64,000 bases of DNA from the human T2T-CHM13v2.0 reference genome, Homo sapiens. The translations under genes and the position numbers were made by a program. The stretch is taken from positions 29,920,001 to 29,984,000 of the forward strand of contig CP068257.2 in the NCBI GenBank assembly GCA_009914755.4. Reading direction: 5' to 3'. The notes beneath the pieces were generated by a model. It saw only the letters and a list, made by a program, of their open reading frames with translations. It did no database searches and had not been told where the DNA came from. Positions 843 to 62,870 of the stretch are shown here, piece after piece (position 1 is the first letter of the stretch; every line of letters starts with the position of its first letter).

Positions 843-3800
843 TCAAAACTCTGCCATGGCAAGAATGAGCATCCAAATACCTTAATAACTCTGGAATCCA
901 AAGAAAATTTCAGGTGAAAGGAAGTGCACGTGGCACCGCCTTCATCTCTCCACCAACAAGCACAGCCGACCCCAGTTAGAACACACTTTGAAACCAAAAG
1001 GCAGATGCTGCTAACCACTAGAACAAAGCAGAATCTGCCATCAGAACAGTACTAGATAGAGTTATTTAAAACATACTCAGAGTTACAGCTGGGACACTTG
1101 GGACACAGGATTCTGAGAGACCAAAGTGGGTCATTTTTGAGCATGTCAGGTGGTAGAATTAATAATGACACCAGGCAACAGGCATGAGGAGGAGTGTCCT
1201 GGGGTACCCCACGGAGCTTGGGGCCTTAGCAGTGTGGAGATGCACCCTGTGGTTATCAGTACCCAGGTAGCCCATATTATGCTAAAGAACTTGCCCTCCA
1301 AATTATCACTTTCCAAAGATATCCTGTGTCCTGTGAGGAGATGGAGATGCACATTCTGCAAGAAGGAAAGAACTTACACTTTACTCCAGTTGGTTGGGTG
1401 AGGGTCCTGTTAAGTTTCAAACAAAACAAAACCCACAGAAGGTCATGGCAAGAATAAACCCCGTGGTTCTGAGCCTCTGAAAACACTGCCCAAAGAGTGA
1501 GTGGGAACGAGCTCATGAGACCCTCCTGGACTTTCCTGCAAGAAATTATCATTTGCCTGGAATGCGGCCACCCAGCCCAGGTGATGGCCAAAAGAGGGTT
1601 GGGTTGATAGAGATCTTGCCCCAGGATCTGAAGAAGCCCTGGAAGGTGAGGCCTGGGGCTGCAATCTTTCCCAACAGACAATGGAGGCCTCCAACAAGGC
1701 TCAGAGGAGAGGTTTTGCAGGTCAGACCCTCACCCCTACCTCAAGGCCCCTCAACAAGCAGACGTCACTATTGTCCCGATCCCACCTTCCCTCCTGAGCA
1801 AGCAATGGGTAGCAAATCCTGTTCACCCCATTTCCATGGTCCTGACATCTCCCCTTCCCCTAGCGAAGAGGATTCCAAGACCCACTCCTCATCGTGACCT
1901 CCCCCTGCCCCCAGATGACGCGGTGGCTTTCTGGGGCTCATTATTACCCCTGCAGAGTGGGCAGAGGAAACCAAGAGCAGGAACTAGGATTGATGGATTG
2001 ACCTATGTTTACAAGGTTAGCAGCTCTCAGGCAAGGTGGGAGGGACAGTGGAAGGGAGGCAGGAGAACGCTCCTTTGGAAACAGGCTTTGCAAAGCCAGG
2101 ATTTTTTGGCAGGATATCCTGTCTTCCTCATGGTCACAGAGAAGCGTGTTTTGGGTCTTTAAGGAAAAGCAACTGAATCCTCATAGCCCAATCTCCAATC
2201 AGTTTCTCCACCCATTCCAAGCTTGGACACTCAGCCCCACTGCCTCCCAATTATATCTTTTTCCCAGCACAACTGCATTAGAGTCCTTTGCTCTTTAATA
2301 AAATCATACTCTAGCGGGGCAGAAGCTGGAATAAATAATACAGGTGTTATTTTCTTAAAACCAAAGACACTTCCCCCTCCCTTTCATCTTTCTTTCATGA
2401 ATTCAAAGTGGTCCCAAACAGAAAACATCCATATTATACTTCAGTTTTGCTAGGTTCCAAAAGGCTAGGATGCCCCCACTCCAACTACACCCAAGTCTTC
2501 CTTTAAGGAAAGAAATACTTGGTGACAGGACCAAGCCTCAAAGGGCCCTGGGCCCATTCTGAAACTGAGATTGTGCTCAGCTGAAAGAAACTTCCTCCCA
2601 CAGAGTTCTTCGATGAATCATCACTCTTTGTTTAACATCCTCTGAAAGCAGACAATTGATCGGCTCTCAGATCATGCCTGCGTAGTACCCCCACCCCCTC
2701 CACCTCTGCAATCCTTTCAGTGAGCTGAGACCCCACTCCAGGGCTCCGTGGTAGGATGCAGTCTCCCAGCTCTGCCTCAGCCCAGAGGGAGAAGAACCTC
2801 TTCACCTAGTGAAAGAGCTTCAAGGTCTTCTAGAAGAATCTCACACACGCACTGGAGGAATCTCTGCGGCTTCCCATGCCCACAGTCTAGGCCCTTATGA
2901 ATTTCTTAATGAGGTCCCTGGAGACCACAGGAACAGGGAAGGTCTTATGCTGGAGGGTGTGGAGGACGGTGCCAGAGGCTGGGAAGGGAATGGAAGGGGA
3001 AAACTCCACCTAACTATTAATATCGTGTACCCTTTTACACTAGAACATTGTTTTATTTTAAAAAACACTCTGTTCCTTGCTGAGTACTGCTTTATTTCTG
3101 AATGTCTCTTTTATTATTTTTTTAATAAATGATTTGGCCTACAATGATGATGAGAGAGAATTTGTTCTTTTTTTTTTTTTTTACACAGGAGTTATAGCTT
3201 ATATAAAATGGAGTACTTAGAGATGAAAAGACCTGAAGTTTGGAATTGGGAAAAACAGAAACGTTTACTAGAGCCCTGCTAATCTGATTTTTCTGGTCCA
3301 GAATTGAGGGAAAAACAAAAGGAGAGTTACCCTTAGAAACATACCTTCTACCTGTTTGCTTAATTTAGAAAGAAAATGTACATGTAAATATACATGTGTG
3401 TATATAACATACACACACACATCCCCAGTGAAAGTGTGTTTTTGATACAGAAGACCAAATGACTGGAGATCGTAAAACGAGGCTCTTTCTTAACCACGAG
3501 CCTGAGTCCGTGGTGTTCAGCACTTTCATGAGAATCTGTAACCTGGCCCAGAGGAACAGAATTTTCTTCCTGGCTTCTCACTCCCACTCCTCTGCCCTCC
3601 TCAAGCAGACAGAAGCCCCCTCTCCCGGCACAGATTTCTAGGCAAGGCTTTGATGTGGTTCCCATGCTCTCACCTGCCTTCCTCATTTGGAAAAACCAGA
3701 GGCTTCTACTGCACATCTATGAAAGTGTTGTCTCACAAAACGTGTTTCTCCTTTAGACAGTATGATCCTTGCAGAAATCGCAGAAGTGTTAATACATGCA

Positions 3801-5434
3801 CCTAGTAGGCCCTCAGCAAACTCTCCCAAGGAATTCCTGCTCAGGGCTCCAGGGTTTCAGTCGGCACACTAGAACTGCAGGAATCTGGGGGGAAGGAGAC
3901 AGGCCCAACGCTGCTTTTCCTTTCTGGTTTAGAGGGGGAGGGGAGAAGAGAGGAGCAAGGAGAAAGAACTGCAAAGGGAAAGGAGAGGAAGTCTTTGTCC
4001 GGGCTCTTTGGACGAGCATTAGAGTGGAGTTAAATTGTCAGCTAATGAGATTTCCTAACCACGTGCTCCCTTTTAAGTCTAGGCCCCCAACTGATTTGAT
4101 CCCCACACAACAGCAGGGGGGAAAGAGGCCTTCAGCATCCCTAAGGGCGCGAGAATTCCCAGAACAAGTACAAGAAGGATGAGAATCATTTCTGAGAGTT
4201 CAACTTTAAATAGGTTATCATATTTATTAATTGACATCTAGCAACAATGCTACTGGCCGCGTTCCACATCAACAGCCGAATAGGGGTTCACGGGAGTCAG
4301 ATTCCACTCGGGGTAACTGAGGCAGGCCCAGGGGAACGGAAGAGACAGAGCGCAATCCTGAGGGCTTCTCCAACCACTGGACAGCCTACAAGTCGAGTTT
4401 ATGTTTGTTTGTTTGCCTGTTTTGGCTGGCAAAGGCCCCTGGGGCCTACATTCAAAGAATGTGTTGTTGGACCCAATAATTTATTCCAACAGGCAAAAGG
4501 GTGTTAAAACAGGAAGTTTTTTTTTTTCAATAAAATCTTTGTCGTTAAGCCTGAGATCATCTGATCTGATTATGGACTGTTATTATTTTGTGTTGTTTAT
4601 TTCTATATGAAACTGATTTCTCTTTTTGCCTAAAGAAAAGTAGCAGTGCAGAGCTAGTGGAGGAAAAACAACTCAAAACACATTCACAACATTTTGAAGA
4701 TATTCAATGAAATTGATTCTCTTCTACCTTCCCTGCTTAGTCAACAGCCTCTTCCTTAAGTTTTATTTCTCCTCTATTCAAAGATAATTACTTAGCAACG
4801 TCGGTGTTTACCACGCAAAGGCATCCACCCTCCCTAGCCCAGCTTTTTACCTTGAGATACAAAAAAGCATATGCTGGAAACCAACAATTTACCAAACTTC
4901 TTCAGCTACAAGGCATAGCTTAAATTTCATCTCTCCTAGAAAGTGTTCCCTCCTAACCTCCAGACATCTCTTTGTTCAAACCTCCCTCCTTCCTGGACTT
5001 AATCACTTTCCACAGCAGTCCTTGGTTCACTGGCAACTGCTTTCCACCTGGAAGGGTTTTTCCTTCTCCAAACCCAGGTCTGGGTCCCAGCAGAATCTTG
5101 AAGAAGAAAGAAGAAACAACTAAAACCTAATGGAAATTCAAACACATTTTTAAAAGGGCTGCAAGCGATTAGATAAATCTAATTAAACCTAAGGCCAAGT
5201 AAAACAAGTCCTGTTTGAAGCTGAGAACAGCAGTCCTTCATGCCTTTTATAATAAAAAGAAATTGGGGCTGGGGGAGTGAAGAACGCAGAAAAGGAAAGC
5301 GACAAGGGGCCATCCTCTATTACAGATTTCCTCTAACACAGAATCAACAGGACTCTAATATTTCATACGTGGCTGTCACTGTGCTTTGAGGTTAATCTAT
5401 ATGGTCGTTTAAGCCCCGCCCCCCTAGAGGTTAT

Positions 5435-5590
5435 TCCTTATCCCCACTTTACAGATGCGCAAACTGAGACAAAGGAAGATAGAATAGCTCGGCCGGGATC
5501 ACCCAGCTTGTGAGTGACACCGAGCAGGTACTGGAACCCGGGTTTGTTTGACCTCAGCGCACAGGCTCTAAACCTCTGCTCCAACTCAAA
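5435..5590 (-). mobile_element. MIR SINE fragment, antisense
   Basis: 'ccccactttacagatgcgcaaactgagacaaagg...gatcacccagcttgtgagtgac...ggaacccgggtttg' matches reverse-complement MIR core ('ccccattttacagatgaggaaactgaggcacagag...'). Confidence 0.5.
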
Positions 5591-7720
5591 GTATGCGCCA
5601 AGTCAGCGTGCATGGGTAACCCGATCCGGACGGCTCTGACTCGGGATGCGGCACAGCTGCCCTGCGGGGCCGCGCGGGTGTCACCGAGGCGGGCACAGAC
5701 TGCACAGTGTCCCCAAGGGCTCGCGCACGTCCTTCAAGACCTGCCAGCGCGCGGGAAAAGGCAGGCTCCGAGTCAACCAGGGCTGACCCGGGGGCAAGAC
5801 CAGGAGACGCGACGACTGGAACCGGGTGAGTGTGGCCGAGTCGGCGCCCCGAGGGCCGCCAGCCTGGACCCCAGGCTGGGACACGGGCGCCCCCGGGTGC
5901 AGGGGACCTAGAGGCGCCGTGCGCGGCGGGGGCTGGGCGCGAAGGCGCCGAGACGGCATCTTTCCCCTGCAGCATCCCGCCCCGCGGCCGGGGGGAGGGG
6001 GCGTCACCTGACAGCGCGCAACAACTTCTCCAGGTTTCGAGGGGGCAAGCGGCAGCCGCCGGGGCTGGGGGGCGCACGGCGCGCTGCTCTCGCCCAATGG
6101 CGAGGTCTGTAAACAAAAGCGGGCCCCACGCGGGTCCCCAGCCGGGTGGCGAGGGGCGCGGCGCAGCAGCATCGCAGCGGCAGAGCTGGTGAGAGGGCGA
6201 GGCGGGGACGGGATAGGGCGCGGGGACCCAGGGCACAGTCCCCGGGACCCGACCGCCCGGATGAGGCATTGTCTGCGCACCCGCAGGATTCCGCTTTTAA
6301 TGCCCCCCTCCGGGGGTTCGTCGCGGGTCCCCAGCTCCGTGCGCCGGCCCCCGGGCTTTCCGCCCGGTGAGCCCGGCCCCGAGGGCGGCACGGATCGCCA
6401 AGGTGAGCGCCCAGGACGCGTCGCCGAAAAGCCAGGCCCGGAGGTGCCTAAGTCAGGGACCGAGACGCAAACATAGACACAAGGATGCACAAGCACGCCC
6501 TCCCCGAAGTTGACAAAAATCAGCCGATAAAATACAAAGTGCCGCGGCCGCCGCAGGTCAGCGCTGACCTCCTGCTGCCGAGAGGACCGAATGCCGACGT
6601 CCGGACGCTGTCATTTCCATCCAGCGAAGGCACCTGGGCTGCACGGTCTCGTCTCCCTCCTTCGCGCGAGGGATGCCTCCTCCTGCCTCTCCTCCCCGCA
6701 TCTCCCCACCTCCCAAGTGTGTGAACACGAAAACAATACGTGGAAAGCCCGATCGGGGGGAGCTAGGACCCGCCGGGAGCCCCAGTGTGCGGGAGACGGG
6801 GGTCAGAACGTGCCCGGCACGGGCACCGAGGCTCCGGGCATCCTCGCCGCCGTCTCCCGGGGCGGCTCCGGCCGGACGCCCGCGCACCCCAGGCCCGCGG
6901 TACTCACCCGCGACGGTCGTCCGGGATCTCCGCGACGGGGCCGGGCACGATGCGGGGCAGCCGTGCCCCTGGGGCTGCGGGCGCCAAGGCGTCCGCGGAG
7001 CTGCAGAGCTGCGCGCCCGACGGCGGCGGCGCTGCTCTGCCGGCCGCGCTCGAACCCGCTCGTGGTCTGCCAATCGGAGCTGTCAGGGCCCCTCCGCCTG
7101 CGGCCTCGGGGGCCGGGCCGCGGGAGCCCGTGGGAAACCGAGCTCCGATTGGGCCGCCTGACAATCGCTCCGCCTCCGGCCAGCCAATCCGAGGCGGTGG
7201 ATGCAGGAGCGGGGCGTTCGGAGTTGGGCTGTAGAGCGACTATGGGCGCACGCCGGGTATCCGCGCCGCAGCCAGGCTCGGAGCGCGCGGCTGGAGGGGC
7301 GCGGGCGGCGCGCGCTCCAGAGATGCCTTCCTGCGAGGCTCCGTCAGCGCGGCCCGGGGAGATCGCCCGCAGGCAGCGGAGGCGCGGCGGGCCGGGGGAC
7401 GACCAGGGAGCCCCTAACAAAGCAGCTTTGGGAGGGCCGGAGGCCTCTGCCTCCCTCGGCGATAGGTCCGCGAAGCTGCCTGTCATCTCGCATAGGTGGA
7501 GGTGGCCAATGGCGTGCACAGACGGAGCTCTAGTTGGCGCGCGCGCGCGGCTCGGCATCGGTGGGATTGGTCGGAGGTAAAGGATTTTCCTGCCACCTAA
7601 GGCGGAGAGGAAGGGGGATCGAAACGGGGGAGGCGAAGAGTCAAAAAATGTTGTGCCTGGGACAAGTGGTCTGGCGCGGGAGGCGTGTGCCTGGCTCTAG
7701 GGGGAGACAGGAACTTTTTT
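5590..7720. promoter_or_regulatory. CpG island (~2.1 kb), promoter-associated; probably bidirectional
   Basis: Abrupt shift to very high G+C with dense CpG (e.g. 11 CpG in 7501-7560, runs 'gcgcgcgcgcgcgg'), many GGGCGG/CCGCCC (Sp1-like) motifs, no TATA box; flanks are AT-richer, CpG-depleted repeat-laden DNA. Confidence 0.8.
7066..7570. promoter_or_regulatory. Cluster of CCAAT boxes (NF-Y-type) in both orientations
   Basis: CCAAT at ~7070 ('ctgccaatcgg'), ATTGG at ~7147, CCAAT ~7186 ('cagccaatccg'), ~7508 ('gtggccaatggcg'), ATTGG ~7565; also 'cgcccaatggcg' at ~6095. 'gccaatcggagct' (7068-7080) and 'agctccgattggc' (7141-7153) are exact reverse complements. Confidence 0.45.
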
Positions 7721-9239
7721 ACGAGAGAAAAAAATCCTAACGCAATCCCTTCCCGTGGATGCTAGAGGATGTTAGACCCTGAGCAGCCTCCAGGTAGGGC
7801 ATGGTGGCCTTCACCAGAGTCCAGGACTCCCAGGGTTCACTTACCGTGCCCAGCAAGCGAACTTGGAATAACAGCGTGGGGTTTGGGCCTTACGCTTACC
7901 TGCTGGGCAGAGTAAGTGACTCGGGCAGGGTTCACGCAGACCTCCTGGGCTCCTCTGTAAAATCCGGAAACTACAGTTGCAGTTTACCTCTCGCAAGGTT
8001 GTGGAGAACGCGGAAACGGAGACGCTGGCGGTACAGCCTCGAGCGAAACCTTTCCCTACACGAGGCCGGAGCTTCCTCCTCTCCTGAAGAGCTCTAGACT
8101 TCCCCATTTACAACAAAGGCTGGGATGTATGTTCCTTACACCTTGATTCCATACACACGTGTTCGCCCCGGGAGCTGGGAAGGTCTGCGCTCCCGGGGTG
8201 ATCTTGTTGAAAACAAAAAGAATTGCCCACGCTGTGGAAGATAAACCTAAACCGGAAAATTGAAAGTCATCCCTGATTCCTCCTTCTTCTTAACCCTCTC
8301 CCATCCATTTTTGTTAACCTCCCAAACCCATTCCTCCCATCCTGTCTCACCTGGACCTCAGTAAAGGGCTCCCATCGTCCTTCTGTCCCAGGCCTTGCCC
8401 CCTGAAATCTGTTCTCCACTTTGCAGAATGATCCTTCTAAGCAGAAAAATCTCATTTTGCGCTCCCAACTCTGGGTCTCTTTTCTTTCCCCAGAACACGT
8501 CAACCCCCAGCCCCTCCCTTCACTTCACTAATTCCTACCCTTCTTCAGATCCCAGCTTGGCCGCCAAGGCATCCATGCAGTAGGCATTGCTGAACTACTG
8601 CTCTTACAGACCCCGGGAAGCCTCCTGTACCCTGTCAAGGTTAGATGCCACATTTCCACTTCCAGTGCTTCCACCCCCTGTGCTCCCCTCACAGGCCTGT
8701 ATGACACGGGGCTGAAGTTGCCTGTTGCACTGCAGCCTTCCATGGAAGCCGGAATCTTATCTATCTTCCCTGCTGGATCCCAGTCCTAGCACAGTGTTTG
8801 GCACATTTGGGGCACTGAAAAAACATGGAATCCATGAATTATAGAGGAGCTATAATTATAGGCAAGAGCTTTAAGGATTTGAAGTGCTTCTAAAACATCA
8901 GTTTGAGAAGAATGGGTAGCATGGTAGCTCTTGAACGGATGCGTCCACCAGGTTCCATGATCAGTATTACAGGGAGGTTTTTGAGTCAAGTTTGAGAGAT
9001 TTTCCAAAGACACCCCTTCCAAAACCAGCCTCGTTTCAGCCAACAGCTTGGAATGGAGAATAATTCCCTTGAGAAGCTTTTCATCCCAGGACAAAGAGCC
9101 ATTTCTTTACCTGTTACAAGCCACCATCTAGGGGAAATACATATATTTGAAAATGAGTAGAGGGTTTTTCCCTAAGGAAGTTTAGAAGTACATCTGGCCA
9201 TCCTTAAAAGAACAGACCCTGGAGTGAGGCTGCCTAATT

Positions 9240-9391
9240 TCAGGCCCGGTTCCTTTCTAGCTGTTACCTAGGGCAAGTTACTTCAGGCCTCCGTGCCTCG
9301 GTTTCCCCATTTATATAAATGAGATAACAATAGTGCTTCATACCACATACAGTTGGTACGAGGATGAATGAGTTAATATTAACAATGTGCT
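9240..9391 (+). mobile_element. MIR SINE (5' two-thirds), interrupted by Alu
   Basis: 'ctagggcaagttacttcaggcctccgtgcctcggtttccccatttatataaatgagataacaatagtgc...gaggatgaatgagttaata' matches MIR core. Confidence 0.55.
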
Positions 9392-9716
9392 GGCCAGGCG
9401 CGGTGGCTCACTCCTGTAATCCTAGCACTTTGGGAGGCCAAGATGGGCAGATTGCCTGAGCTCAGGAGTTTGAGACCAGCCTGGGCAACACGGTGAAACC
9501 CCGTCTCTACTAAAAATACAAAAAATTAGCCGGGCATGGCGGTGTACTCCTGTGGTCCCAGCTACTCAGGAGGCTGAGGGCAGGAGAATTGCTTGAACCC
9601 AGAAGGCAGTGGTTGCAGTAAGCCGAGATTGCGCCACTGCACTCCAGCCTGGGCAACAGAACGAGACTCCGTCTCCAAAAAAAAAATAAATAAAAAACAA
9701 CAATTTAAAAAAAAAA
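9392..9716 (+). mobile_element. Alu SINE inserted into MIR
   Basis: 'ggccaggcgcggtggctcactcctgtaatcctagcactttgggaggcc...' to A-rich tail; TSD-like 'aa(c/a)aatgtg' on both sides. Confidence 0.9.
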
Positions 9717-9780
9717 TGTGTTTAGAAGAGTACCTGGCACATAGTAGCATTTAATAATGTTTACTGAATAAATAAACAGC
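9717..9780 (+). mobile_element. MIR 3' end (continuation after Alu)
   Basis: 'gagtacctggcacatagtagcatttaataatgtttactgaataaataaa' ~ MIR 3' end 'cagtgcctggcacatagtaagcgctcaataaatg'. Confidence 0.5.
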
Positions 9781-10019
9781 TTCCACTGGACATGTGTGTG
9801 ATGGGTAGGGAGTCCTCATGAGTGAGTGGCGGGTTACTAGAGGCTTCCCTGAAGGTGAGTAATGGGATCTCTCTTCCCTGCCTCATCTGAGGGCTGCTGC
9901 CTTAGGGTCTCCTGTTAAGGAGGTGACATTATTGTAAGGAGAACCTCAGATGAATCATCACAGCAGCCATCTGATTGCCTTGTGCCTAAGACGTCTGAAA
10001 AGCACTTTGAGATGCAGAA

Positions 10020-10210
10020 TCCTGGCGGTAGGTTGGCTGGGTTGAATCTCAGCTCTACCACCTACCAGCTCTGTAGCCTTGAGAAGGTTACTTAATCTTT
10101 CTTAAGCCTCAGTTTATTGATCTCTGAAATAAGGGTAGTAACACCTAACCCGTAAGGATACGGAGACAGTTAAAAAGAGGTCACGCGTAGCATATGGTAC
10201 AAACTCATCA
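10020..10210 (+). mobile_element. MIR SINE
   Basis: 'gaatctcagctctaccacctaccagctctgtagccttgagaaggttacttaatctttcttaagcctcagtttattgatctctgaaataagggtagtaacacc' matches MIR consensus. Confidence 0.55.
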
Positions 10211-10290
10211 AAGTTGGTGATCGGGTTCAGCTAAGTTAGTGAAAAACAGGATAATAACATTCCATTAAATGGTTGAAAAACCTGGATGAG

Positions 10291-10571
10291 GCCGGGTGTG
10301 GTGGCTCACCCCTGTAATCTCAGCACTTTTTGAGGCCAAGGCATGTGGATCACTTGAGGCCAGGAGTTAGAGATAAGCCTGGCCAACATGGTGAAATCCC
10401 TTCTCTACTAAAAATACAAAAATTAGCCAGGCGTGATGGTGCATACCTGTAATCCCAGCTACTCGGGAGGCTGGAGGCAGCAGATGCAGTGAGCCGAGAT
10501 CCAGCCACGGCACTCCAACCTGGGCAACAGAGTGAGACTGTCTCAAAAAAAAAAAAAAGAAAGAAAGAAAG
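10291..10571 (+). mobile_element. Alu SINE with internal deletion
   Basis: Alu consensus start to A/GAAA tail; perfect 16-bp TSD 'gaaaaacctggatgag' at 10275-10290 and 10572-10587. Confidence 0.9.
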
Positions 10572-10634
10572 AAAAACCTGGATGAGACAATGCAGGAGAA
10601 ATACTCACTGCCCATAGGGGAGATAGATACATAG

Positions 10635-11142
<508 letters not shown>

Positions 11143-11639
11143 TGGGTATCTTTCTTGACCTCGCAAACCTAAAAAGCTACTGCAGGCTTCAGTGCTGTTT
11201 CTTGTCTCCGCCCTACACGGTACATCGCTACTTCACACTGGCAAAGAGAATGGGGCATTTTGATTAAAATACAGACAAATGCCATCTGGCCGAGTATTCT
11301 GACATCTTATCTCCTGAGGGCACTGTTGACATCTAAAGAGAACATGGAATTGGCATTAAAGGAAAAAATGGGGTGGTCAAAGGCAGAATCAAGGTTTAGG
11401 GCAGGAGAATGAGCACAAGTTACATTTCTAGTACATGACCCTAGCTGCAACTAAGAGTCAACATTTTCTTCCCCACTGGTTATTGAAAGGCTGACTAAAC
11501 AATCGTAGCTGAGTTACAACAAATGGTCTTCCCCAGTACGAAGATACCTACACATGCGCTCTGGGCAGCCCTGCCTCACTTGTGTTCCTGAGCTGGTCTT
11601 TCTCTCTAACAGATGCTCCCTCAGGGTTAGACTTTGGCC

Positions 11640-11725
11640 TGTTTAATTCACTGCTCTATTCATAAAGTGTCTCGAACAGTGCCAAGCACATAGTATGTGC
11701 TCAATAAATATCTATTGGATGAATG
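11640..11725 (+). mobile_element. MIR 3' fragment
   Basis: 'gaacagtgccaagcacatagtatgtgctcaataaatatctattggatgaatgaa' ~ MIR 3' end. Confidence 0.45.
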
Positions 11726-11847
11726 AAGTTTAGCCTTCCGCACTCTACGAGGAGTTTGGCACTGAATTATTTTCTTTTCTGTCATCTATTTGTGGATGCC
11801 CTCTTTAAAGAAAGGACAGGAGGCAGCTTATACAAAAATAGATCTTG

Positions 11848-12651
<804 letters not shown>

Positions 12652-13260
12652 TTAATGCATACCCCACTGACACTGAAAAGTATGCTGACTTCTTTCTGAG
12701 TCATAAACTTTCACTGACTGTCTTTCAGGGGTACATTTTAGCCGGTATGTTGCAGTCTGTAGCCAGTTCTTACAACCTCTGTATTGCACCCTCTAATGAA
12801 AAAGGACAACCCCAGTATAAGGAGTCTCCCTCCCTTCTCCCAAACACCTTGTAACAGACTCCAGAACACTCCCAACTTTGTTGATGTGACTTCCCCCATC
12901 ATCAGTCTTCACATTTGGCTTCCAAGAAGCCTTTATCAAATTATTTCAGTCTTAATTTTGGTTGACATTTTATATATATATATATACGTACGTGTATGTC
13001 TTCTGTTGGTTCTGTTTTTTTTTTTTTTTTTTTGGAGAACCCTAATGCACATCCCAATAGTTTTTCCCATAACCATTCAATATTCCTCTGCAGACTTGCT
13101 ACCCAAAGTGTAGTCTGCGGATCAGCAGCAGTGGCATCGCCTGGTGTCAGAAACACAATCCCAGACACCAAGCCAGACACTTAACTCAAATCTACGTCTT
13201 AACACTCAGGTGATATATCTGTGTATAAAGTTTGAGAAGTACCTCATAACTTCTTTGGGG

Positions 13261-60854: not shown

Positions 60855-60864
60855 CTAAGTTAAC

Positions 60865-60958
60865 AATACAGATGACAGCCCACGATACAGATGACAGCCC
60901 ACAATACAGATGACAGCCCACAATACAGATGACAGCCCACAATACAGATGACAGCCCA
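60865..60958. repeat. Minisatellite: 19-bp unit 'aatacagatgacagcccac' x5
   Basis: 'acgatacagatgacagcccacaatacagatgacagcccacaatacagatgacagcccacaatacagatgacagcccac' near-perfect tandem copies. Confidence 0.9.
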
Positions 60959-61622
60959 CTTTAACCAGGACTTGCTGGAGGGTTGGGGCTGTCTCCTAAG
61001 CCGCTGGGCATAAGGGCTTTGAGCTTCTGTGAAGCGTGAATCACTGAGTGTGAGTCGCTGAGCTGATTATTCTCCGTGCCCTCCTTATGCTTTCTTCCTC
61101 CTTCCCAGCCCTGCTCTGCACCCTGTGGGCTTGACCTCTGTGGACACATTTTCTGAGTTTCTTTCCCCTTTGTCTTCCTGTGGGTTTGGCTAATGAGAGG
61201 CCCTGAGAAGAAGTCGGAGGGCAAGAGAAGCAGCTGGGGTCTTTCTTCCCCGTCCCTCCCTACTTCTTGTAGTGATGCTGCCTGTGGCTTGGGGCTCTTC
61301 CTCCCCAGATCCGGCTCTCACCCAGCTCAGTCACGCTCTCTCCTCCCCTGACCTCTACTACAGTGAGTGGTGCCGAGGGGCTTCACCGTCCCACTTTGTA
61401 AAAATTAGCCCCGCACGCTAGTTTGTAAACAAACGCTCTGTTGAATTCTTTCCAGAATTCCATTTGAGTGTGCCTAAGGGTGCCCTGCTTGAGCTATGAT
61501 GCTACAGATATCCCCATGAGAAATTTCTATCCGTGGGCAAGGGCAGCAAGGGGTCACGGGATCGTGGTGTGATTTCTCTGCCTTAAATTAGTTCCTAATA
61601 TGTTGTAATATTGTTGATGTCA

Positions 61623-62613: not shown

Positions 62614-62870
62614 CAAAGAAAAGAAATGAAGAAAAGAAAAGAAAAGAAAAAAGAGAAGAGAAGAGAAGAAAAGAAAAGAGAAGAGAAGAAAAGAAAAGAA
62701 AGGGAGGGGAGGGGAGGGAAGGGCAGGGGAATAGGGAGGGGAAGGGGAGGGGAATAGGGAGGGGAAGGGGAAGGGGGGAAGGGGAAAGGGAAGGGGAGGG
62801 GAAGGGGAGGGGAAGGGGAGGGGAAGGGGAGGGGAAGGGGAAAGGGAAGGGGAGGTGGGGGCAAGTTTCT
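62614..62870. repeat. ~255-bp purine tract: (GAAAA/GAGAA)n grading into G-rich (GGGGAA/GGGAAG)n
   Basis: 'aaaagaaatgaagaaaagaaaagaaaagaaaaaagagaagagaagagaag...gggaggggaggggagggaagggcaggggaatagggaggggaaggggaggggaatagggaggggaaggggaaggggggaaggggaaagggaaggggaggggaaggggaggggaagg...'. Confidence 0.9.

What the first reader, a model, noticed from the sequence alone, without database searches (positions are those of the whole stretch)
5590..7720. Large CpG island with bidirectional-promoter hallmarks; candidate first exons on both strands
- **Sharp boundaries.** The CpG-dense block ends an upstream MIR-containing AT-richer flank at ~5590 and gives way to ordinary sequence at ~7720.
- **Promoter hallmarks.** It has no TATA box, many GGGCGG/CCGCCC motifs and six or more CCAAT/ATTGG boxes in both orientations (6095, 7070, 7147, 7186, 7508, 7565). 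That arrangement is typical of NF-Y-dependent and often bidirectional promoters.
- **Plus-strand splice signals.** Consensus 5' splice donors: 'accgg|gtgagtg' at 5825/5826, 'ctg|gtgagag' at 6189, 'caag|gtgagcg' at 6401, and 'tcggag|gtaaagg' at 7576/7577. A good acceptor 'tctttcccctgcag|c' lies at ~5972.
- **Minus-strand splice signals.** 'cgcggg|gtgagtacc' (plus coordinates 6908/6907), and just outside the island 'cccagcag|gtaagcg' (~7900/7899) and 'cacg|gtaagtgaa' (~7848/7847).
- **Candidate minus-strand first exon.** An ATG-initiated minus-strand ORF of about 69 codons (8107 down to 7901) runs exactly into the 7900 donor.

The island very likely marks the 5' end of at least one gene. Which signals are used cannot be decided from sequence alone.
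Basis: partly seen in the sequence, partly recalled or inferred. Interest (0 to 1): 0.55.

Follow-up and report, generated by a model that had tools for sequence, protein, structure and literature searches.

The report
TIAM1 / TIAM1-AS1 CpG-island promoter
This is an ordinary, already annotated CpG-island promoter, conserved across mammals, from which the human TIAM1 gene and its antisense non-coding RNA TIAM1-AS1 appear to start in opposite directions.

Summary
**Observation: confirmed.**
- Window 5590-7720 has 71% G+C and CpG obs/exp 0.95, against 47% and 0.32 for the whole window. It is the only CpG island in the 64 kb.
- There is no TATA box.
- The six CCAAT/ATTGG boxes are real, enriched (6 against 2.0 expected) and conserved.
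- GC boxes are not enriched.

**Identity.**
- The plus-strand ORF in the island clusters with orangutan RefSeq "TIAM1-AS1".
- The minus-strand ORF clusters with chimpanzee, bonobo and gorilla models.
- A published table places the TSS of both TIAM1 and LOC150051 (= TIAM1-AS1) in one 2.5-kb CpG-dense region of chr21.

**Conservation.**
- Five non-primate mammalian orthologues keep the island, the boxes and these two donors.
- None of the ORFs is coding.

**Verdict.** The locus is already known and of low interest. Exact TSS positions remain undetermined.

The parts
5590..7720 (.). CpG island (core). By 200-bp criteria it runs about 5400-7799.
   Evidence: G+C 0.71 and CpG obs/exp 0.95. The orthologous 2.0-kb segment keeps G+C 0.67-0.72 and obs/exp 0.86-0.96 in orangutan and five more distant mammals.
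7900..8299 (.). Weaker CpG-rich shoulder. It may hold a distal, primate-specific minus-strand start.
   Evidence: G+C about 0.575 and obs/exp 0.63-0.85. Identity to distant orthologues is only 41-66%. The idea of a distal TSS here rests on my recollection of TIAM1 gene-end coordinates, and the registration was ambiguous.
6908..7558 (-). Minimum extent of the minus-strand first exon (TIAM1 side) in the chimpanzee models. It ends at donor cgcgg|gtgagtacc: last exon base 6908, GT at 6907-6906.
   Evidence: XP_063659762.1 (chimpanzee) aligns to 7558->6905 at 96% and leaves the genome at the donor. The bonobo and gorilla models share its length and near-identical sequence. The donor scores 6.0-6.3 in all six orthologues. 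The chimpanzee CDS range is 216 kb. The ORF itself is not coding.
7201..7576 (+). Minimum extent of TIAM1-AS1 exon 1 (plus strand). It ends at donor tcggag|gtaaagg, with GT at 7577-7578.
   Evidence: Orangutan XP_054398431.1 'TIAM1-AS1' aligns to 7233-7577 at 90%. The model is rebuilt exactly with one GT-AG intron. The donor and its surroundings (7550-7599) are 96% identical in distant orthologues.
7577..12728 (+). TIAM1-AS1 intron 1 (5.15 kb).
   Evidence: Inferred from the orangutan model. The CDS range is 5445 bp in L001, against 7201-12740 in the window.
12729..12744 (+). Start of TIAM1-AS1 exon 2, after the acceptor ctgtctttcag|GGGTACATTTTAG. The end of the exon is not determined; a gtatgt follows at 12745.
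   Evidence: This is the only place in the window that gives the model's C-terminal R-G-T-F-stop after an AG.
7070..7188 (.). Core cluster of three CCAAT boxes: 7070 (+), 7148 (ATTGG, i.e. minus) and 7184 (+). A CTGTCA follows the first box.
   Evidence: Boxes 7070 and 7184 are kept in all six orthologues; 7148 is kept in five. The surrounding 7100-7199 is 88-91% identical. Enrichment is shown.
7506..7570 (.). Second pair of boxes: CCAAT 7506 (+) and ATTGG 7566 (minus). A GC-rich GGCGCGCGCGCG stretch lies between them.
   Evidence: Both boxes are kept in all six orthologues.
6088..6135 (+). Conserved element in the left half of the island: CCAATGGCGAGGTCTGTAAACAAAAGCGGGCCCCACGCGGG. It combines a CCAAT box with a forkhead-like GTAAACA.
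   Evidence: Nearly invariant in all six orthologues. Reading GTAAACA as forkhead-like is from my own knowledge.
6700..6800 (.). Highly conserved non-coding block. It lies in the first intron of the minus-strand gene, just downstream of exon 1.
   Evidence: 88-94% identical to five distant orthologues. Function not tested.
5826..6403 (+). Plus-strand splice-like signals in the left half: donor 5825|5826, acceptor 5972|5973, donor 6402|6403. Whether they are used is unknown.
   Evidence: Donor 6403 scores 6.8 in all six orthologues. Donor 5826 is kept in five of six. The acceptor tract plus AG is kept in all. Donor 6189 is lost (GT->GC) outside apes. GC skew is positive over 5800-6300.
7901..8107 (-). 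It is not a coding exon.
   Evidence: 41-60% identity. Frameshifting indels in L002, L003 and L005. The donor is deleted or weak outside apes. The 88-aa ORF is absent from the protein collection.
5438..5542 (-). MIR element at the left edge of the island.

Best explanation
The segment is the CpG-island promoter at the 5' end of human TIAM1 (chromosome 21q22.11), shared head-to-head with the antisense long non-coding RNA TIAM1-AS1 (formerly LOC150051).

**Shown**
- It is a 2.1-kb, TATA-less CpG island.
- The island and its six CCAAT boxes are conserved across mammals.
- Ape gene models leave it in both directions.
  - On the minus strand, a non-coding first exon ends at the conserved donor 6908|6907. 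It is followed by a very long intron; the next exon lies outside the window.
  - On the plus strand, TIAM1-AS1 exon 1 ends at the conserved donor 7576|7577 and splices to 12729.

**Inferred, from established knowledge of CpG-island promoters**
- The island stays unmethylated and nucleosome-depleted.
- NF-Y binds the clustered CCAAT boxes, possibly together with TALE-class factors at the adjacent CTGTCA motifs. This sets up divergent RNA polymerase II initiation.
- The strong 5' splice sites close to the starts, and the absence of poly(A) hexamers for kilobases on either side, favour productive elongation in both directions.

**Other points**
- The long ORFs across the island are by-products of G+C-rich sequence, not genes.
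- Exact TSS positions are not determined. The minimum extents of the ape models overlap (7201-7558), which fits the '-AS' rather than '-DT' name of the RNA.
For: **Identity**
- An exact look-up put plus ORF 6591-7577 in a 90% cluster with XP_054398431.1 'uncharacterized protein TIAM1-AS1 [Pongo abelii]'. It put minus ORF 6806-7558 with Pan and Gorilla models.
- Mapping of these models places their exon ends at the two donors. The orangutan model is rebuilt exactly with a GT-AG intron.
- TIAM1-AS1 is NCBI Gene 150051, an ncRNA at 21q22.11 (PMC12779367). Gene 150051 was formerly LOC150051 (PMC5021030).
- PMC6357467 Table 1 lists chr21:31557558-31560049, 156 CpGs, with 'TIAM1 0.0 kb TSS / LOC150051 0.0 kb TSS'.

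**A long minus-strand gene**
- The chimpanzee CDS range is 216 kb.
- No coding exon is detectable elsewhere in the 64 kb.
- Left of the island the minus strand shows T>A by 0.063 and G>C by 0.051. There is no consistent asymmetry on the right.

**Promoter features**
- Composition.
- The sign of the GC skew changes near 7050-7100.
- CCAAT enrichment. Donor enrichment.
- There is no poly(A) hexamer on the plus strand between 5251 and 9685. On the minus strand there is none between 9000 and 6301.

**Conservation**
- Five orthologues at 77-83% identity and orangutan at 97% keep the island, the boxes and both donors.

**Experimental context**
- The TIAM1 promoter is a NIPBL-bound site conserved between human and mouse. 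80% of such sites carry the NFYA motif, and they coincide with NFYA/B, SP1 and PBX3 peaks (PMC3923681).
Against: - No transcript-start data (CAGE, ESTs) could be consulted, so no TSS is placed.
- The link to TIAM1 itself is indirect. It rests on the name of the antisense gene, on the published TSS table, and on ape models that NCBI labels LOC134809257 or 'collagen-like', not TIAM1.
- I could not register the published hg38 coordinates onto the window unambiguously.
- The published region lists 156 CpGs. A 2.49-kb span here holds about 270. Coverage filtering of CpGs in that study may explain the gap, but I have not shown that.
- Guessed human spliced ORFs were not found in the protein collection. 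This says little either way.
- Alu orientation is 42 plus to 21 minus across the whole window. That could hint at minus-strand transcription upstream of the island as well.
- NF-Y binding at these particular boxes is inferred, not shown.
Confidence: 0.85

Rival explanations
1. The island is an internal, alternative TIAM1 promoter rather than the 5'-most one. On this reading the 56 kb to its right would be TIAM1 intron, not upstream intergenic DNA.
For: TIAM1 has several 5' non-coding exons and alternative starts (my recollection). Alus are oriented 42 plus to 21 minus across the window, which is the bias expected inside a minus-strand gene. The published table gives only the distance to the nearest annotated TSS.
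Against: The transcription-type strand asymmetry is present left of the island and absent right of it. No TIAM1 coding gene was listed within the 216-kb range plus flanks of the chimpanzee model. That places the island more than 200 kb upstream of the coding region. My recollection of the TIAM1 gene-end coordinates (hg38 about 31,558,977 or 31,559,977) falls inside the published region.
Confidence: 0.08
2. The promoter is essentially unidirectional, for TIAM1. The plus-strand RNA would be promoter-upstream antisense noise that annotation pipelines have named, with no function of its own.
For: The donor at 7577 is weak by matrix score (2.9). The 'protein' of TIAM1-AS1 is an artefact. The only papers that mention TIAM1-AS1 are expression or methylation signature studies and gene lists.
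Against: The 7577 donor and its surroundings are the most conserved 50 bp of the island, at 96%. The RNA is spliced in the orangutan model. No poly(A) hexamer follows for 2.1 kb. Conservation there could, however, reflect factor binding rather than splicing.
Confidence: 0.3
3. The long ORFs in the island encode real proteins. These are the 329-aa plus ORF, the 251-aa minus ORF and the reader's 69-codon ORF. NCBI's automatic models name some of them 'uncharacterized protein TIAM1-AS1' and 'collagen alpha-1(I) chain-like'.
For: The ORFs are long. They are present in the protein collection and carry RefSeq XP accessions in apes.
Against: Every distant orthologue has indels that are not multiples of three inside each ORF. 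Substitutions are not concentrated at third codon positions: 0.24/0.21/0.18 for the plus ORF and 0.19/0.18/0.16 for the minus ORF. In 71% G+C sequence, stop codons are rare by chance. The ORFs on the two strands overlap each other.
Confidence: 0.02
4. It is an orphan or repeat-derived CpG-rich block with no promoter function.
For: None beyond the fact that no expression data could be consulted here.
Against: The block is single-copy in the window; it is not masked by the self-comparison. The island properties are conserved across mammals. Gene models start in it on both strands. The published annotation places TSSs in it.
Confidence: 0.01

Closest known systems
The annotated human TIAM1 / TIAM1-AS1 (LOC150051) promoter region, chr21q22.11
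   Same: The gene name comes through orangutan RefSeq. Models sit head-to-head on opposite strands. A published table describes a CpG-dense region of about 2.5 kb holding both TSSs. TIAM1 promoter methylation has been studied in colorectal cancer (PMC7285750). This region was also the top Wilson-disease liver DMR.
   Different: Nothing is shown to differ. This is most likely the same object. Exact coordinates could not be matched with these tools.
Mammalian bidirectional CpG-island promoters with CCAAT/NF-Y boxes, as described by Trinklein et al. 2004 and Lin et al. 2007 (my recollection)
   Same: TATA-less CpG island. CCAAT boxes in both orientations, enriched and conserved. GC skew changes sign at the centre. 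Divergent transcripts.
   Different: The minimum extents of the two first exons in the ape models overlap by about 350 bp (7201-7558). The classical definition has non-overlapping TSSs less than 1 kb apart. One partner is a lncRNA, not a protein-coding gene. GC boxes are not enriched.
NIPBL / NF-Y / SP1 / PBX3-bound CpG-island promoters (Zuin et al. 2014, PMC3923681)
   Same: That paper names the TIAM1 promoter as a NIPBL site conserved between human and mouse. The NFYA motif is present at 80% of such sites. Here there are six conserved CCAAT boxes and four CTGTCA/TGACAG motifs (TALE-class, PBX/MEIS-like), against 0.54 expected.
   Different: The paper gives no coordinates or primers that I could map. 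Binding of NF-Y or PBX3 to these particular boxes is therefore not shown. The CTGTCA enrichment was noticed post hoc.

Membership tests
CpG island (Gardiner-Garden & Frommer / Takai & Jones criteria) | Length > 500 bp, G+C >= 55%, CpG observed/expected >= 0.65 | tested here: met
   2131 bp, G+C 71%, obs/exp 0.95. Every 200-bp window from 5400 to 7799 passes 0.5/0.6.
CpG-island promoter | Transcription start sites of annotated genes lie inside the island | tested here: met
   The evidence is indirect. Ape RefSeq models have their first exons here on both strands. PMC6357467 lists the TIAM1 and LOC150051 TSSs at 0.0 kb from a 2.49-kb CpG-dense region. No CAGE or EST data were available.
CpG-island promoter | Unmethylated, H3K4me3-marked chromatin in expressing tissues | not testable with these tools
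   Only literature hints exist: a -37% methylation difference in Wilson-disease liver and promoter methylation studies in colorectal cancer.
Bidirectional promoter (head-to-head gene pair) | Two transcription units on opposite strands diverging from one island | tested here: met
   Minus-strand models end exon 1 at 6908. The plus-strand TIAM1-AS1 model ends exon 1 at 7576.
Bidirectional promoter (head-to-head gene pair) | TSSs less than 1 kb apart and not overlapping | tested here: inconclusive
   TSS positions are unknown. The minimum model extents overlap (7201-7558), which suggests overlapping head-to-head transcripts. Model 5' ends from unstranded data are unreliable.
NF-Y-dependent promoter | CCAAT boxes near the TSS, more frequent than chance and conserved | tested here: met
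   6 against 2.0 expected (P = 0.011). 5 against 0.47 in 7060-7580. Five boxes are kept in all six orthologues and the sixth in five.
NF-Y-dependent promoter | NF-Y occupancy, and loss of activity when the boxes are mutated | not testable with these tools
   There is only class-level evidence from PMC3923681.
   Frameshifting indels in all distant orthologues that cover them. No third-position excess.

The most novel reading that the evidence does not exclude
The left half of the island (about 5600-6440) lies inside the first intron of the minus-strand gene. It may be a second, separately conserved promoter module for a plus-strand (antisense) transcript. It has its own invariant CCAAT-plus-forkhead-like element (6088-6135) and positive GC skew. 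It also has plus-strand splice signals: donors 5826 (kept in five of six orthologues) and 6403, and acceptor 5972 (both kept in all six). If current annotation does not cover it, this would be an extra conserved antisense start within TIAM1 intron 1. It could equally be an intronic enhancer or an already annotated TIAM1-AS1 isoform.
Probability: 0.2. Interest if true: 0.2.

Novelty: already known. Interest (0 to 1): 0.1.

Why it matters
TIAM1 is a RAC1 exchange factor. It is implicated in tumour invasion and, when lost, in neurodevelopmental disorders (PMC10959942). Its promoter methylation has been used as a disease marker.

For this scan the value is confirmatory. A reader working from sequence alone located a real promoter and two splice donors that ape gene models use.

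Nothing here changes what is known about the locus. The conserved CCAAT/CTGTCA arrangement and the conserved left-half module are modest leads for anyone dissecting TIAM1 regulation.

Tried and rejected
1. **Rfam scan of the window.** It returned only Alu-type SRP matches.
2. **Bacterial promoter/terminator scan.** Irrelevant to this eukaryotic sequence, and nothing exceeded chance.
3. **Full-text search for 14-mers around the CCAAT boxes.** No paper prints them.
4. **Search for coding exons to name the gene.**
   - Codon-usage scoring was dominated by G+C-rich island ORFs and found nothing elsewhere.
   - A first exon finder with strict thresholds gave 3 weak candidates.
   - Inspection upstream of the best plus-strand donors found none that looked coding.
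   - A Pfam scan of 442 repeat-free open segments of >= 40 aa gave only three chance-level hits.
6. **Pooled 5000-aa homology query.** First over the length limit, then timed out.
7. **Pooled 813-aa query of ATG-to-donor peptides.** It found nothing.
8. **Exact look-up of guessed human spliced ORFs.** Not in the collection.
9. **Look-up of bonobo/chimpanzee model P0020.** Not on record.
10. **Supplementary files of two papers, searched for TIAM1 promoter primers.** None held.
11. **Registering the published hg38 region on the window by CpG positions.** Several registrations fit, so no TSS coordinate was transferred.
12. **A window start at a multiple of 64,000.** Considered and dropped: the region's start would fall on a CpG but its end would not.
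Full report
**1. The observation**

Composition:
- Window 5590-7720 has 71.0% G+C and CpG observed/expected 0.95, with 254 CpGs. The 64-kb window as a whole has 47% and 0.32. No other 1-kb bin exceeds 0.51.
- In 200-bp windows the usual criteria hold without a break from 5400 to 7799. A weaker shoulder runs 7900-8299.

Background:
- The window is primate-type DNA. A self-comparison masks 37% of it as about 65-70 Alu copies. Rfam reports only Alu-like SRP matches.

Motifs and signals:
One donor is misquoted by an extra g.
- There is no TATA box.
- CCAAT/ATTGG boxes number 6, against 2.0 expected in dinucleotide shuffles (P = 0.011). Five lie in 7060-7580, against 0.47 expected.
- The 'many' GC boxes number 6, against 8.9 expected, so they are not an enrichment.
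- Strong 5' splice sites are over-represented. By a simple matrix of my own, five score >= 6, against 0.29 expected.
- GC skew is positive over 5800-6300, negative over 6500-6800, near zero over 6800-7100, and positive over 7100-7800. I recall this as the pattern reported around divergent CpG-island promoters.

**2. What it is**

Attempts to name the gene through coding exons failed. Codon-usage scoring and a Pfam scan of 442 repeat-free open segments found no coding exon anywhere outside the island. This fits a locus made of non-coding first exons and very long introns.

The identification came from an exact look-up of the island's own ORFs:
- The plus ORF 6591-7577 sits in a 90% cluster with XP_054398431.1, 'uncharacterized protein TIAM1-AS1 [Pongo abelii]'.
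- The minus ORF 6806-7558 sits with chimpanzee LOC134809257 and with 'collagen-like' automatic models of bonobo and gorilla.

Mapping these models on the window:
The bonobo and gorilla models have the same length and nearly the same sequence.
- Their second exons are not in the window. The chimpanzee CDS range is 216 kb.
- The orangutan plus-strand model follows 7233-7576.
- The orangutan protein is rebuilt exactly from locus L001 with this single GT-AG intron.

Literature:
- TIAM1-AS1 is NCBI Gene 150051, an ncRNA at 21q22.11, formerly LOC150051.
- A whole-genome bisulfite study lists chr21:31557558-31560049 (156 CpGs) as lying at 0.0 kb from the TSS of both TIAM1 and LOC150051 (PMC6357467).
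- Because the RNA is antisense to TIAM1, TIAM1 is on the window's minus strand.

Strand asymmetry:
- Left of the island the minus strand shows T>A by 0.063 and G>C by 0.051. I recall this asymmetry as typical of transcribed human DNA.
- The right side shows no consistent asymmetry.

**3. Conservation**

- A homology search with the 329-aa ORF found translations of the same region in other mammals.
- Five of their contigs (L002-L006, species not identified) align colinearly to window 4.6-9.1 kb at 74-80% identity by BLAST, and 77-83% in the multiple alignment. Orangutan aligns at 96-97%.
- All of them keep a segment of about 2.0 kb with G+C 0.67-0.72 and CpG obs/exp 0.86-0.96.
- Identity to the distant set is 70-96% inside the island. 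Peaks are at 6700-6800, 7000-7050, 7100-7200 and 7500-7600. Identity falls to 41-66% from 7650 onward.
- Five CCAAT/ATTGG boxes are kept in all six orthologues and the sixth in five.
- The minus donor at 6907 and the plus donor at 7577 are kept in all six.
- Also kept are the plus donor at 6403, the acceptor at 5972, and a 48-bp element at 6088-6135.
- Not kept outside apes are the 6189 plus donor and the 7899 minus donor. The 7844 donor is kept in some orthologues.

**4. The ORFs are not genes**

- Every distant orthologue has indels that are not multiples of three inside the plus ORF (7242-7576) and the minus ORF (7558-6908).
- Substitutions show no third-position excess.
- The XP records are automatic translations of G+C-rich non-coding exons.

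**5. How it most likely works**

Shown: the island, the conserved boxes, the divergent spliced models, and the conserved donors.

Inferred from established knowledge:
- NF-Y bound at the CCAAT clusters (7070-7188 and 7506-7570) keeps the region open and directs divergent initiation.
- U1-type donors close to the starts favour elongation. So do the poly(A)-hexamer-free stretches: 5251-9685 on the plus strand and 9000-6301 on the minus strand.

Supporting context: the TIAM1 promoter is a NIPBL site conserved between human and mouse. 80% of NIPBL sites carry the NFYA motif and coincide with NFYA/B, SP1 and PBX3 binding (PMC3923681). Four CTGTCA/TGACAG motifs, against 0.54 expected, fit the PBX3 association, but I noticed them post hoc.

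**6. What stays open**

- TSS positions are not determined.
- The published coordinates could not be registered on the window unambiguously.
- From memory, TIAM1 ends at hg19 32,931,290, and in newer annotation 1 kb further upstream. Under the plausible registrations this would put one start at about 6940-7090 and a distal one at about 7940-8090. The distal one would use the ape-specific 7899 or 7844 donors. This is recollection plus inference, not a result.
- The 2:1 Alu orientation bias is unexplained.

**7. Verdict**

This is a known, annotated promoter. Interest is low.

Noticed in passing
window 6143-6156: A 10-bp deletion allele (CGGGTGGCGA or an equivalent shift) is present in public human-derived assemblies. 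Removing it from the window reproduces exactly a 192-aa ORF (P0025) that was seen on 31 contigs. Two close variants also exist.
   Followed up: partly
window, whole 64 kb: About 65-70 Alu copies make up 37% of the sequence. They are oriented 42 plus to 21 minus. This bias is stronger than I expected and is unexplained if the right-hand 56 kb is intergenic.
   Followed up: partly
window 6700-6800: A non-coding block is 88-94% identical to five distant mammalian orthologues. It lies just downstream of the minus-strand first exon. In three of those species it carries a strong minus-strand donor-like site at 6709 (score 7.2, against 3.7 in human).
   Followed up: partly
window 7070-7090, 7148-7165, 7478-7510, 6000, 6606: CTGTCA/TGACAG (TALE-class homeodomain) motifs sit next to the CCAAT boxes: 4 against 0.54 expected. 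The ones at 6000, 6606, 7081 and 7480 are conserved. This fits the reported NF-Y/PBX3 co-occupancy at NIPBL-bound promoters. It was noticed post hoc.
   Followed up: partly
window 7231-7232 versus L001: Orangutan has a 2-bp deletion that removes a stop and joins the ATG at 7201 to the downstream frame. This explains the longer N-terminus of its 'TIAM1-AS1 protein'. It is further evidence that the ORF is fortuitous.
   Followed up: yes
cluster members P0013 and P0030: Two ORFs in the protein collection end in DRKSVV. That is a translated Illumina adapter (GATCGGAAGAGCGTCGTG), so adapter-chimeric contigs are present in the public assemblies.
   Followed up: no
A pooled low-complexity query returned no hits, although 90-96% identical ape proteins are in the database.
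   Followed up: yes
window 43272-43414, 60863-60959, 12129-12228, 62615-62856: Tandem repeats: a 71-bp unit x2 (97% match), a 19-bp unit x5 (ACAATACAGATGACAGCCC), a (TA)n of about 100 bp, and a purine-rich GGGAG/AAAGA tract of about 240 bp.
   Followed up: no
window 3674-3970, minus strand: A long pyrimidine tract has several AG acceptors (3893-3970). About 220-300 nt downstream lies a good donor at 3673 (score 6.9). All frames carry stops. This may be a non-coding exon of the minus-strand gene, or chance.
   Followed up: no
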